Source: Lingula anatina | Lineage: Eukaryota; Animalia; Brachiopoda | DNA: 64,000 nucleotides | NCBI GenBank assembly: GCA_051362555.1 | Contig: CM120641.1 | Coordinates: forward strand, 30,014,401-30,078,400 | Reading direction: 5' to 3' | Shown: positions 37,701-61,700 of the stretch, one piece after another | How positions within the stretch are numbered: position 1 is the first letter of the stretch | Layout of the letters: every line of letters starts with the position of its first letter | The notes under the pieces: model-generated | The model's input: only the letters and a program-made list of their open reading frames with translations | Databases searched by the model: none | Told to the model about the DNA's origin: nothing | Translations under genes and position numbers: made by a program

Positions 37701-40700
37701 TCAAAAATATTCTCACGATTTAATAAATATTCTAATTTACCCAGAATGGTATATTTATTTAAAAGGAGGCTAGCTAAGCTGGATCAAGTCCGTGTTAAAA
37801 TTCCTATGAAGCTGTGCAGGAAAAATTCTTCCTTTGTTTCTCTAGCTCCTCGATAAACCTGGTGTTCAGATTTTATCTAGTACCCCCAGGTCTGCGCGAG
37901 CTACTCTTTGAAACTAACGCACAGGTAGATTTTTACCTGAGATAAATATCCCCAGCGAGAGTGCGTTTGATACTCGCAAGACAAAGGCTACAGGAGAATT
38001 GAATGCCATTTAACCCTCTAGTTAAGAGGTAAAGGAAGTTCCAGTTAGATGGATGATTAAGATAGGACTTGTAAAGGTAACGGGCATTGTTTACCTCAGT
38101 TTAAAAAAAGTATGCAAGACGGGGTGTCAGCGGTTTAATAAAATAAATTGAATTTCACAAATAACATGGACCTCATATGCAATAATCAACAGTACCCTTA
38201 ACTCATTCAAATGCAGTGTTTTATACAACTTGGGATAACCATAATTAAATGCTTGTTAAAGAATTGACTAGACGGGAAATGGTTTTACACAGCTTCACGA
38301 GGATTTAGACCCTTCGGGTAAGAGATTTGAATGAGTATAAACTTTTATCAGAAGCCAGAAAAGTCATCTTACAGGTAGATAATGCAGCTCAGTTTGACAG
38401 CTAAGCACGCTCTGTTCTCTGGTGGCACAATTGTCGTCATCGGACCACGTGACCATGTAGCTCATTAACTCCCAGGCCGAGCAAATAGGACGTTTTTTAA
38501 AGCCAGAAATTTACAAAATGAGCTTTTAATTTGTGTATTTGGATGAAGATATCGTTAGTTGGGCATGTTTTCTGAAGAATATGTTCCGTTCAGGCTATTC
38601 TGACGGTGTGTCCATTGTCCTTTAAAAGTTCAAAAATGAAGTCATCTGCTCAAGTACACACATAAAAAAATGGAGTGCCAAACTGAATGTTGTTTTTCTA
38701 ATATTTACGTAAAGGATGTCGGATGCAACCACGAAACTTATAGTATCCAGAACTTTGGTGTTGTGGACTACAAGAGCTTGGTAAGACAAACTTATTTTAT
38801 GCCATATCAATAAAAAAGATGATTTCCATGTTTATAATAAATTCTATCAAAATTGATTTGACACATGCCATCTGAAGGTGGAAACACATTTGACCATTTT
38901 CTGAATAGTCAACAGTCATTTATACCTTAAAAACACCATTGCAAAAGCAGATAAAAGAAGAATTGCATTTCTGTATTAAATTTAGTACAAGAATTGTAAA
39001 CATAAGTTTCAAGCATGATACATATAAAGTTACTTCTCTACGTTTGATGAAAATTTGTCTTTCAGTTCCATCCTGGCAAGCTTACCAGCAAACATGCAGC
39101 TACAGTTCCAAGGAAATCACCACGTATCAGATACTTTACTGCAGTATGTCTGGACTCATTGGGAAAACCCTATTGATGTAAATAATAGCTTATAATATAC
39201 ATTGTGAGAAAATCGCTATGCTATGCAGAAATGAATTACTTGTTGAAATCTGAGCACATGTGCATAAGTAGTATTTATATTTGTTGTTTTATGTGCCAAT
39301 TTATTAGGATTACAAAATTAGACCTATAAGTAATTTGGCCAACATATATGATATAAGGTTTTCTTCTGATATTGTTTTTCAACAGTTTTAAGGGGATTTT
39401 TTTTCAATTTGAGAGCAAAAATGTTCTTTTGATATTTTTCCCCATCTCAACATTTTGTTTGTTGGTCATGTAAAAATGATAGTAAATTGGTTATTTTGTA
39501 TTATGTAAAAAAAGTGTTGAAAATGGACATTTTTCCTGCTTTATGTCTGTACATTTGACAGCTTTGATAGCTTGTTTTGCTTGTTTTATTTATTTATTTA
39601 TTTATTTATTTATTTATTTATTTATTTGTTTGTTTGTTTTCCAGGCTGTAAAACATCAATCAAAAGTAATATTTGAGAATTGTATAAAATTGCACCTGCT
39701 AGCAACAAAAGAAGGTAAATATACCCAATCTGCTTTCTGGGTAGAATGTTGAACTTTAGTTACTTTAGGTTGCATTCAGGACAGTTGATCCCAGTGGGTC
39801 CATGGATCAAATATGGCTGACCCCTCTTGAAAACAATGCTGCTAATTCCCTAATATTCTACCTGCCTACCACACATGCCAGGCCTGCAAGGGCCTGGCGA
39901 TTAAATGGATAAACTTTTAGTTCAGAGGTGTAAGTGCTAGGTCTGTCCCGGGATGGTGCATGCAGAGGCAAGGAGACCATCAAGGGGTTAGGCTGCATTG
40001 CTTTTAGGTAGGGTCAGCCATATTTAGTCTGTGTTGGGTTAGTCCACAGATCATCTGTTGTGAATGCAACCTCAGAAATCCCATCCTGAATATTGAATTA
40101 TACATTGGATACGGGTAGGAATGTTTTATGTTATTTATCTATGTTTTCAGCAAATTATTAATGGTATTCAGTATCTAGTGCGTTATGCATGGTATTAAGA
40201 TATAAGATATAAGATGTATAGCTGAATTAATTAATCTCTGAAGGAATATGATGTACTCTTTGGTAATTAATTTTTTTTTCTTTTCTGTTACAGATCCAAG
40301 GCAGAGCACTTTTCTTGTCACACTTGCAGAAAAACTGATTCATAGTAATAAGCATTTAAAGGGAAAGTATGCCTCCTTGTCCTGTTTAGTAGAGTATGTA
40401 GGCACCAAGGCATTGATTAAAGTGGAACCCAACCTGTGTCAAGACCTCTTAGAAGTACTGTCTGAACAAGCTATGGCTAGCCATGTAAGTTCAACAGAAA
40501 ATGAGAATAAGAATTGGGGAAAATCAGAGCATTTCACTAGTGGGCTTGATTTGATCTTAAAGTGCAATTTAAGAACACAAATAGTCTTACATGATCTTAA
40601 AACATGAGTAAGACCATTTCTAGTCTGACAGCCAATTAAGTTGTCTCCCCTTACACATTCTCCTATTGTGAGCAGAGGTGTCCTCTATTGTGAGGGGAGG

Positions 40701-58700: not shown

Positions 58701-61700
58701 TAATGATTAAGGGCTCATTTCCATACACAACATCGGTCTATGTAGTTCAACCCAACTCTATACATGGACTGACTGCTTTAAGATAAAAAAAAAATGATCT
58801 AACCCTGGAGGAGTAAGATTATTATTGGACTGATTCCAGTTAAGTGGTTTAGCAATTATATCCCCTCACATCCCTCACACTGAACACTCTGACCACAGGG
58901 TCTGCTAGTAGTCTGTTACAAAATTAGTTTATTTGATCCTGTGGAAATTGAGGTGATCAGTTCCCATAGAGTCAGATACAATAATTCCAGCTGTTCAGCT
59001 GATTGAATACATCCAACCCCACAATTATCCTCCTCTGCTGCTGAGCTACTGTTTAATGGGCAAGTAGTGGCATGGTATTTTCAAAATTGCAGATGAGTTT
59101 GTTTTATTATTGATTGGATGGTATTGTCGTCAGAGTGTCCACCTAAGGAAAGGAGGATGTGAGTTTTAACCTATCAGGGGACATACCAGTCCTTTACAGA
59201 TGGTACCTGCTGTCTCACTGCTTGGCACTGAGCATTTAGGGGTTGAAGCAGGGATAAAGTTCCCAGTTTGGCAATGAAAAAGATTTATTTGTTTGCTAGC
59301 TTTCAGCTTATTGTCTTTTTATATGTACAAATGTTTTGTTTAAATGTTTACAGGTGAGAAATGCATCCACCCTTCTGTTCAGTGCCATGATGACTCGGAT
59401 ATTTGGTGTTAAACGAAGCAAAGAAGACATGTCCAAGAAAAACTGGTAGGTCTTAAAATTTTCTCTTGCACGTTATGTATAATCACTATATATATATCTT
59501 CTGATCGCTGTGTCTGGCCCTTTGTTACAACTATTTATGTTTTTTACCCTATAAACCTCCAAATTAAATTTTCTGATTACTTTTGTTTGATAAAAACTGC
59601 TTTGTTTGGTGTCTGTATATTTGCCAGCTTTGCCTTCTAGTTAGATTCAATTGCTTTGAATTAAAATTGAAATTTATTATTTGTCTTTTTATAGTATGAC
59701 AGGTAGAGTGTTCTTTCATCGATACCCAAGCCTGTTTCAATTTCTCCTGAAAGGGTTGGATGAAGGTACCAAAAATATAAGGTATGGAATGATCAAAGTA
59801 GGAACCTTTTCCAGATATGCCAAAATTTTTATAACTATACGACAAAGGGTCTTCGTGGAAAATTCATTTGAGATTGACTAAGAGACCATTCCCAGAGACT
59901 ATCATACTAACTTTGGATCGAACTCTCTCCAAGGGGATTCCCACTTAATTGCAATTAATTTGGGCAGTGTAGATGTCTGTCACGCCTACGGAAGCTGATA
60001 GGGGGTAATTAACTATCGTTTAGCAGCTTGATCTGAAAACAATTTAGCAAGAGACCCTGTGGAGATGGACCGATCCTGTTACATCAATCTAGATGGTCTT
60101 ATACCTTGTGAGTTATATAGCATTTTCAATAGTATGATATTGGACTGAGGAGAATTCCTTGTCACTACCATCAATAACTGACCGCTCCGAGGGAAAGGAG
60201 AGATGATAAATCAGCCTGAACCTGCCTGGGTCATATTTCAGTTTGTGGGGTTGCAAAGAGGCCATAACCTTGGATTCACATAGGCCAAGGAAAACCCCAC
60301 AAATGATATAGATTTAAATAGACAAGTATGTAAGAAAAACATGCCATTCAACCAGACGTAGCAGGGAAGGAAAAAATATAAATCAGTAAGCAAATATATC
60401 GTAAAAGCATGCCACTCAACACTTGGTTTGGACCTCTCCAATGTAGTAGGGAGGAAAATAATAAACAAATATATCATGAAATCTACCACTCAACACGATT
60501 AAGTGGGGAGGAACAATAAATAAGTTGAAATAGATGTGTACATATAGCCATCACTTGGGTCTGTCATTGCTGTAGCTGTGCACTTTCAGTTTTATAACAA
60601 TAAGTGAAAAATAGTTTGACCTTTTGTTTTCAAACTAACAGAATGGATGAATATTCATGAAATGCAGGTCAAGTTTAAAAATTAGCTTTATCAGACGATT
60701 TCCCCAGAAGTTATGCTATTTTACACTTTTTCTGCATATTTTACCCACCATTATACAAATAAAATGAAAACCATTTTACCTTTTGGCTTTAAAATTACAG
60801 AACTGGTGAATATTTGTGAAATTCAGGTTAAGTGTAAAAATGGACCTTTTCCCAAAAGTTATGCTGTTTTTTTAAACGTTTTATCCACTGTTATGCAAAA
60901 AAAAAAATCCATGTCATATTTTGCTTTGAAACTTGCCGGACTGATTCATGGTCTAATAAACAGATCAAGTTCAAAAATAAGCTTGATCAGTTTATTTTTA
61001 TTGCTGTTTTGTTTTAATATAAGTGGGTTTTCCTCAGATTCAGTTCTAAGGCATTTTAACAGTCGCAGTAATGAATTAATTAGATTTGTAAAAGTGTTCT
61101 TTTGACATTATGTGTATCCTAGCAGTCATGTTACTTGAATGATTAAATATAATGAAATGATGGTAAATCTGTTATTGTATATTCTTTAATTATCAAAAAT
61201 GGAAATGAACTCAAATCATGTCAAGAATCTCAAAATGTAACAAATAGGGTATTTTTTCTGTGTCTGTACATTTGACAGCTTTGCTGCCTTGTTTATTTAT
61301 ACTTTTTAGTGACCAAGGTCAGCTTCACCTTCATCCAGGGTTGTATCCAATCCTAATGGTAATGGGGAGACTATTCCCTGCCATGGTTGAGGGGAATGAT
61401 CCCAAACTGAACCTGCCTGCGTACATTCCCTTTGTGATCAGGTACACATTTTGATATGATATAATGAAGACAAATTTAATAAAAGGTACACAATGAACGC
61501 TACACCTCAATATTGGTTTTCCCAGAAATTTGAACACTTTCTTTTAATGGAGGAGGTATACCATATCCAGAACTGTTGACAAAATTATTATGATTATCCT
61601 GTTTTTTAGTTCTAAGCCTTGCATTTTTTAGAAAGGTTTAATTATGGAGATGGAGACTAGCAATTTTCACTTGTGCTGGTAAAAACCAAAGTTAAAGATT

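What the first reader, a model, noticed from the sequence alone, without database searches (positions are those of the whole stretch)
39544..61309. A Helentron/HINE-like transposon whose 3' end repeatedly sits at THADA 3' splice sites and may supply the branch point
Seen: the 3' terminus TGTCTGTACATTTGACAGCTTTGCTGCCTTGTT (or decayed versions) starts 46, 48, 42 and 56 nt before the acceptors of exons 16, 29, 18 and 19 (46615, 61261, 47791, about 48229). It also starts 84, 100 and 139 nt before exons 28, 11 and 20 (59610, 39544, 53053). The same hairpin occurs about 145 nt before exon 4 (about 32299). In the two best copies the A of TTGAC (yUnAy consensus) is 33-35 nt upstream of the exon, and the element's own AG is folded into the GACAGC/GCTGCC stem. 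Known: Helentrons/DINE-1 insert into T-runs. Inference: the element targets polypyrimidine tracts, displaces the old branch point by up to kilobases and brings a replacement. That would make it a splicing-neutral, intron-inflating mobile element.
Basis: partly seen in the sequence, partly recalled or inferred. Interest (0 to 1): 0.78.

Follow-up and report, generated by a model that had tools for sequence, protein, structure and literature searches.

The report
Jumping-gene ends crowd splice acceptors
In the THADA gene of the lamp shell Lingula, the tail ends of one very common rolling-circle jumping gene sit in the gene's own direction just in front of about eight exons, a zone where mammalian genes show few such insertions, likely because this T-rich tail can stand in for the intron's splicing signals and so survives while the rest of the element erodes.

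Summary
The element is a typical HINE (non-autonomous Helentron) of Lingula: subTIRs, 5' hairpin, microsatellite, 162-bp repeats, 3' palindrome, T-run target, an empty site in a divergent animal, roughly thousands of copies. The placement is real: 13 of 13 loci lie inside THADA on the sense strand, and 8 of 9 3' ends lie 10-126 nt before an acceptor (P 1e-7 uniform; 0.003-0.04 under the harshest T-run models; one gene, picked after the fact; two ends are weak matches). RNA reads on the family run 4-60:1 sense. In five introns element DNA fills most of the branch zone, so it likely supplies the branch point. Six of six tested acceptor-side ends are old; most lack a body. Best reading: T-run insertion plus survival filtering, not a conserved branch-point cassette. 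No genome and no lariats were available. The scan noted single TE-in-acceptor cases in other genomes, not this repeated pattern.

The parts
22701..62439 (+). THADA/TRM732 homolog, exons 1-30 (gene runs on beyond the window)
   Evidence: open 1404-aa frame with AG/GT ends; P0002 99% identical on exon 20; PF25150 and PF10350
48909..52597 (+). Full-length HINE copy in mid-intron 19 (483 nt from donor, 595 nt from acceptor), with nested sequence; absent in run X10
   Evidence: one X10 contig joins 48914 to 52592
48913..48942 (+). 5' subTIR plus inverted repeat (13-bp hairpin); its first 11 nt are the reverse complement of the 3' subTIR
   Evidence: -19.5 kcal/mol, z -7.2
48995..49473 (+). central 162-bp tandem repeat, 3.0 copies, after a GTC/GCC microsatellite
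46288..46647 (+). 5'-eroded copy; ends 14 nt before exon 16; TTGAC A at 46629 (-33)
   Evidence: end shared with X10
60522..61293 (+). decayed near-complete copy; ends 16 nt before exon 29; TTGAC A at 61275 (-35)
   Evidence: end shared with X10
47787..47823 (+). lone decayed 3' end, 10 nt before exon 18; proposed branch A is C
   Evidence: spanned by X10 and X4 contigs
48227..48261 (+). marginal decayed 3' end, 24 nt before exon 19; proposed branch A is T; no adenosine between -41 and -9
   Evidence: not found by the profile
59601..59642 (+). lone 3' end, 52 nt before exon 28; proposed branch A is C
   Evidence: spanned by an X10 contig
39417..39576 (+). short deletion derivative, ends 68 nt before exon 11, followed by a TTTA microsatellite
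53032..53085 (+). lone 3' end, 107 nt before exon 20; internal AG lost
   Evidence: spanned by an X10 contig
32287..32319 (+). 3' palindrome and tail only, 126 nt before exon 4; proposed branch A is G
   Evidence: E=0.015
31250..31352 (+). internal piece of the element reaching to about 25 nt from the exon 3 acceptor; TTGAC A at 31343 (-34)
34098..34192 (+). lone 5' end, 46 nt after the exon 6 donor
   Evidence: E=5e-19
24555..25094 (+). internal pieces of the element in intron 1, far from both splice sites
62749..64000 (+). copy in intron 30 with three tandem 5' ends and 163-bp repeats; runs off the window

Best explanation
A high-copy HINE sits in THADA introns only in the sense direction with its 3' ends piled up before acceptors, likely because it inserts into T-runs of the sense strand and because its T-rich tail is likely tolerated there as a stand-in branch zone while the rest of each copy erodes. 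Steps. (1) Shown: HINE anatomy, T-run target, one empty site. (2) Shown for this gene: sense polarity and acceptor proximity; shown in RNA from the whole animal: sense bias. (3) Inferred: pyrimidine tracts are the densest T-run targets (TTTT about 4 times the intron mean), which explains part of the pile-up but not all. (4) Inferred: a copy landing 10-25 nt from the AG pushes the old branch point away, and splicing moves to an adenosine in the element: TTGAC where present (introns 2, 15, 28), another A where it is lost (17, 18). (5) Inferred: later deletions trim the body but cannot cross the acceptor, so old copies persist as lone 3' ends next to exons.
For: 13 of 13 loci sense and inside the gene, none in the 22.7 kb upstream (P 2e-4 and 3e-3); T-run strand skew predicts only 57% sense. 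8 of 9 ends within 130 nt: P 1.2e-7 uniform, 9e-5 TT with repeats masked, 8e-4 to 0.04 with rising T-weighting; within-intron position test P 9e-4. RNA sense:antisense 3.8 and 3.8 at the 3' end and 11-62 at the 5' part in two libraries, against 0.98 and 1.08 for a control repeat. The 3' flank consensus over other copies is T-rich in two DNA and two RNA runs; the control repeat's flank is A/T balanced. The -40..-18 window is element-derived for 23, 23, 23, 16 and 16 of 23 positions in introns 15, 17, 28, 2 and 18. 6 of 6 tested acceptor-side ends are shared with the divergent run X10, while the one mid-intron full copy is absent there. A lone 5' end survives 46 nt from a donor, as symmetric erosion predicts. 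TE-supplied branch points are shown experimentally for MIRs (PMC7969005 passages).
Against: One gene, chosen because of the pattern; no genome was held. With only the six strong ends and the harshest T-weighting P rises to 0.16, and to 0.07 if introns are capped at 300 nt. Undetected decayed bodies would shrink the host length and weaken the position test. The age contrast rests on one polymorphic copy (Fisher P 0.14), whose absence in X10 could also be a loss. No lariat evidence. Host-side branch candidates exist in intron 15 (TTAAT at -12) and intron 28 (-15, -11). The -29..-38 branch zone is not significant in element-free introns (5 of 20, P 0.11). The RNA strand bias could come from self-transcription or a few abundant mRNAs. 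Ends in introns 2, 3 and 10 were not covered by the lays.
Confidence: 0.55

Rival explanations
1. Active niche targeting: the partner transposase is steered to the 3' end of introns in transcribed genes (exposed T-rich non-template strand or the splicing machinery), and the element has evolved a branch-point-bearing, donor-poor sense strand that makes such insertions neutral.
For: Enrichment survives moderate T-weighting. Perfect polarity although T-run skew gives 57%. TTGAC lands at -33, -34 and -35 in three introns. GTRAG donor words: 0 sense against 16 antisense in 6.6 kb of copies. The best-preserved ends carry the A that breaks the palindrome, the decayed ones carry G, C or T.
Against: The only polymorphic copy is mid-intron. 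The branch A is among the least conserved columns. The donor gap is not significant on non-redundant sequence (0 against 4, shuffle P 0.06) and absent with a donor matrix (4 sense, 0 antisense).
Confidence: 0.2
2. Plain T-run preference acting on short ancestral introns, with no splicing role beyond chance; this gene is an extreme draw.
For: TT/T-rich targeting is the known HINE rule (PMC4067079, PMC7492417). Four hit introns are only 249-467 nt. P 0.04-0.16 under the strongest T-weighting. YTRAY occurs in 25% of random 27-nt intron tiles.
Against: Needs a mean flank T fraction near 0.55; three flanks begin TT-GG or TT-AG. Does not explain 13 of 13 sense or the RNA strand bias. Oyster HINEs were reported in both orientations on assembled sequence, not tested against genes. 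Intron 18 has no host adenosine between -58 and -10 if its end is real.
Confidence: 0.2
3. The element is an introner-like unit that created these introns or their acceptors.
For: In intron 2 the alignment to the element runs almost to the AG.
Against: 5' ends lie 46-740 nt from donors. The X10 allele without the copy keeps the flanks of intron 19. The element's own AG scores 3.8-4.9 bits in the intact ends against a median of 8.6 for true acceptors.
Confidence: 0.05

Closest known systems
HINE / DINE-1 non-autonomous Helentrons (PMC4067079, passages); oyster Cg_HINE (PMC7492417, passages and section 9)
   Same: subTIRs, 5' inverted repeat, microsatellite, central tandem repeats, 3' palindrome, TT/T-rich target, no target duplication, many deletion derivatives
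   Different: The passages read report no gene-strand polarity and no pile-up at acceptors; the oyster paper says both orientations and no regional preference.
TE under-representation zones in mammalian introns (PMC3088655, passages and section 8)
   Same: Selection near exons shapes TE orientation and length; elements near exons are shorter; human SINEs are sense-biased 20-200 bp from exons
   Different: There TEs are depleted near exons, most of all near acceptors; here one family is enriched before acceptors in one gene.
MIR-supplied branch points in OGDH reporters (PMC7969005, passages)
   Same: A TE inserted near a 3' splice site can bring in or remove branch points
   Different: Engineered single insertions, most of which repressed splicing; not one family fixed at many acceptors of one gene.
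Introners (PMC11282704, passages)
   Same: Transposons that fit themselves to splicing
   Different: Introners make new introns and supply splice sites at their ends; this element sits inside existing introns.

Membership tests
HINE (non-autonomous Helentron) | subterminal inverted repeats at both ends | tested here: met
   11-nt 5' subTIR is the reverse complement of 52565-52575
HINE (non-autonomous Helentron) | 5' inverted repeat nested with the subTIR | tested here: met
   13-bp hairpin, z -7.2
HINE (non-autonomous Helentron) | microsatellite, then central tandem repeats | tested here: met
   GTC/GCC run; 162-163-bp units, 3.0 and 4.1 copies
HINE (non-autonomous Helentron) | short 3' palindrome near the end | tested here: met
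   4-6-bp stem with one mismatch, weak as RNA
HINE (non-autonomous Helentron) | TT / T-run target, no target duplication, empty site | tested here: met
   flanks CAC-TTTTT and TT-GG do not repeat; X10 contig of 1864 nt, depth 47.1, matches 48622-48914 with letters 37-313 and 52592-53680 with letters 307-1392; taken as one record by length, depth and strand; junction letters not displayed
HINE (non-autonomous Helentron) | no coding capacity | tested here: met
   only one stop-free frame of 170 aa or more overlaps a copy, and it starts across a nested TA microsatellite
HINE (non-autonomous Helentron) | autonomous Rep/helicase partner with the same ends | not testable with these tools
   no genome held; none among the window's long frames
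Introner | element boundaries coincide with intron boundaries | tested here: not met
   5' ends 46-740 nt from donors; empty allele keeps the intron 19 flanks
TE-supplied branch point | element DNA occupies the branch zone | tested here: met
   16-23 of 23 positions in 5 of the 7 introns examined; 0 of 23 in introns 10 and 27
TE-supplied branch point | lariat maps to an element adenosine | not testable with these tools
   exon depth about 1-14; joint tables crowded by repeats
TE-supplied branch point | the proposed adenosine is conserved across copies | tested here: not met
   changed in 4 of 8 non-reference copies, 0.95 expected

The most novel reading that the evidence does not exclude
A rolling-circle transposon that has made the 3' splice site its niche: it inserts strand-specifically into pyrimidine tracts of transcribed genes, carries its own branch zone on a donor-poor sense strand, and has thereby rewritten the branch points of thousands of Lingula introns, the reverse of the acceptor exclusion zone of mammals.
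Probability: 0.2. Interest if true: 0.8.

Novelty: new variant of a known kind. Interest (0 to 1): 0.5.

Why it matters
In mammals the stretch before an acceptor is where transposons are scarcest. Here one DNA transposon family is concentrated there, on one strand, at about 9 of 29 introns of a housekeeping gene. If this holds genome-wide, it shows a route by which branch points are replaced wholesale by mobile DNA and introns grow from their 3' end. It also offers many natural replicates for asking how much sequence an animal acceptor really needs. The test is cheap once the Lingula assembly and annotation are in hand.

Tried and rejected
Genome-wide mapping: no genome held. Collection scans for the 3' end: 0 in metagenome contigs twice, 0 in prokaryote genomes, 2 viral contigs matching only a 19-nt pattern with unrelated flanks, taken as chance. 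No RNA holder was listed by the run search; the RNA runs came by species label. Splice joints and lariats: joint tables were filled by repeat contigs, so no junction read was seen directly; exon use rests on depth profiles and on P0002. Run X11 (another organism label) laid only 48 records, mostly on repeats, and was not used. Hairpin masking of the AG rejected as a general feature. Donor depletion on the sense strand kept only as a lead. Poly(A)-signal asymmetry: AATAAA 4 sense against 7 antisense, ATTAAA 7 against 3, no signal. No Rfam or tRNA match in the window. Papers with nothing bearing on the question: PMC4938662, PMC9341512, PMC4224331 (passages). PMC5738225 (passages) reports an asymmetric Helitron target in barley. 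Nine library searches listed no report of a Helentron or Helitron family enriched at acceptors; most were judged from listings, subscription papers are missing, and no supplements were read.
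Full report
Host and gene. Exon 20 matches a RefSeq protein named THADA homolog of Lingula anatina at 99%; that protein carries PF25150 and PF10350. I placed 30 exons from 22701 to 62439. All internal acceptors end in AG, donors begin with GT after one boundary correction, and the joined frame is open for 1404 codons. 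The 29 complete introns total 35,527 nt, median 595. No genome was held, so positional statistics are for this one gene.

What the element is. The copy at 48909-52597 has an 11-nt subTIR at each end, a 13-bp 5' hairpin (z -7.2), a GTC/GCC microsatellite, 162-bp tandem units and a short 3' palindrome followed by TT. This is the HINE/DINE-1 plan in PMC4067079 and PMC7492417 (passages; section 9). In run X10, about 92-95% identical to the window in single-copy DNA, a 1864-nt contig matches 48622-48914 with its letters 37-313 and 52592-53680 with letters 307-1392. Length, depth and strand agree, so I take these as one record and as an empty site. The flanks do not repeat. Summed contig depth over the 3' end is about 6,000 (X10) and 7,400 (X4) times single copy; the tool warns that this is no true copy number.

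The observation. An ungapped scan gives 8 hits at 22/33 or better, all on +, against 0.1 expected. Eight of 29 introns hold the end in their last 200 nt at local scores 29-66; 1450 shuffles reach at most 28. Distances from the last base to the acceptor are 10, 14, 16, 24, 52, 68, 107, 126 and 595 nt. The intron-18 end is marginal (not found by the profile) and the intron-3 end is weak (E 0.015). In intron 2 an internal piece reaches about 25 nt from the AG. Counting all fragments there are 13 loci, all sense and all inside the gene; the element-derived minus-strand matches are the self-complementary 5' hairpins.

More than chance? Eight of 9 ends within 130 nt: P 1.2e-7 (uniform), 8.9e-5 (TT sites, repeats masked), 8e-4, 3e-3 and 0.04 (T-weighting to mean flank T of 0.44, 0.48, 0.57), 4e-4 and 9e-3 (introns capped at 500 and 300 nt); position within each hit intron P 9e-4. 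With only the six strong ends these become 7e-5, 4e-3, 0.016, 0.036, 0.16, 0.011 and 0.07. TTTT is about four times denser in the last 30 nt of introns, but T-run strand skew over whole introns predicts only 57% sense. The gene was picked for the pattern and my repeat mask was set by hand, so these values are not genome-level proof.

Evidence beyond the window. THADA exon reads lie on the '-' first-mate direction, which fixes sense. Reads on the element, drawn from many loci, run 3.8:1 sense at the 3' end in both libraries and 11-62:1 at the 5' part; a control repeat at 46896-47280 gives 0.98 and 1.08, and another at 55034-55441 about 2:1 the other way. The consensus behind the 3' end is T-rich in 53 and 49 DNA contigs and in 442 and 411 RNA reads, with agreement only about 0.5, so the average flank is moderately T-rich and not a pure pyrimidine tract. 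Self-transcription or a few abundant mRNAs could add to the strand bias.

Age. X10 contigs span or end inside the acceptor-side ends of introns 15, 17, 18, 19, 27 and 28 (6 of 6 tested; introns 2, 3, 10 not covered), while the mid-intron full copy is missing (Fisher P 0.14). Five of the eight acceptor-side copies are lone ends under 60 nt; the others span 160, 360 and about 770 nt. A lone 5' end lies 46 nt from the exon 6 donor. This fits erosion that stops at exons.

Branch point. The -40..-18 window is element-derived for 23 of 23 positions in introns 15, 17 and 28, 16 of 23 in introns 2 and 18, and 0 of 23 in introns 10 and 27. In introns 15, 28 and 2 an element TTGAC at -33, -35 and -34 is the only YTRAY in that window. 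So supply of the branch zone is likely on geometry alone; the window limits are recalled from general splicing knowledge, not measured in Lingula. But the proposed A is G, C, T and C in introns 3, 17, 18 and 27: 4 of 8 non-reference copies against 0.95 expected (P 0.003). It may be a subfamily difference; it is not a conserved cassette. Host candidates at -12 (intron 15) and -15/-11 (intron 28) remain. The hairpin folds at -3 to -4 kcal/mol, no better than shuffles, and forms in intron 15 but not in intron 28. The element's AG is a weak acceptor (3.8-4.9 bits in intact ends, true median 8.6) and lies 2-3 nt after the proposed A, closer than the 8-12 nt quoted in PMC7969005 (passage). Bins wholly inside introns 17 and 18 have no RNA depth in two runs, at exon depth about 2-5. 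No lariat could be seen.

Mechanism. I commit to T-run insertion plus survival filtering (0.55): the tail is tolerated before acceptors, takes over the branch zone when it lands within about 25 nt, and outlives its body. Active targeting with an adapted element (0.2) is not excluded: GTRAG words number 0 sense against 16 antisense in 6.6 kb of copies, but 0 against 4 on non-redundant sequence (P 0.06), and a donor matrix shows no such bias. Plain T-run preference in short introns (0.2) fails mainly on polarity. An introner reading (0.05) fails its defining test.

Relation to known work. It is a member of the HINE family, with the autonomous partner untested. TE-supplied branch points are known (PMC7969005). 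Mammalian introns show TE depletion near exons, most of all near acceptors (PMC3088655, section 8), which is the reverse of this gene. Nine library searches listed no report of such enrichment for rolling-circle elements; the library lacks most subscription papers and I read no supplements. Earlier scan notes record single TE insertions in acceptors of other genomes and HINEs elsewhere in this genome; none matched all words for a repeated acceptor pattern.

Verdict. Observation confirmed with one omitted counter-example; interpretation partly supported; new variant of a known kind; interest 0.5.

Noticed in passing
window:57066-57145: A 39-bp tandem duplication (2.1 copies, 97%) copies the exon 24 acceptor with the first exon bases, giving two acceptors in a row; resembles the 'mirage' repeats noted elsewhere in this genome.
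   Followed up: no
window:48286-48324: The RefSeq model P0002 lacks the first 39 nt of exon 19 (in-frame downstream AG), starts with a different first exon (30466-30513) and stops at exon 23. RNA depth in bin 48228-48305 fits use of the upstream acceptor.
   Followed up: partly
window:27202-28898: Two overlapping minus-strand frames with hAT dimerisation and DUF4371 matches: a frameshifted hAT-type transposase inside intron 1.
   Followed up: partly
window:59177-59253: Short sense repeat in intron 26 with very high one-stranded RNA depth in X12 (about 2,700 in the bin) and a tRNA-like loose 5' sequence; possibly a SINE fragment.
   Followed up: no
window:46901-47283, 55214-55430, 55850-56085: Three other repeat insertions are absent from X10 contigs, so this gene's introns are still taking up mobile DNA.
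   Followed up: partly
window:62749-63045: Three tandem 5' ends of the HINE (98-bp period), as expected from rolling-circle restarts or self-insertion.
   Followed up: no
If that is this 162-bp unit, they would face a repeat that lies mostly sense in pre-mRNA.
   Followed up: no
window:18867-19705: Element with long inverted arrays of a 22-bp unit at both ends.
   Followed up: no
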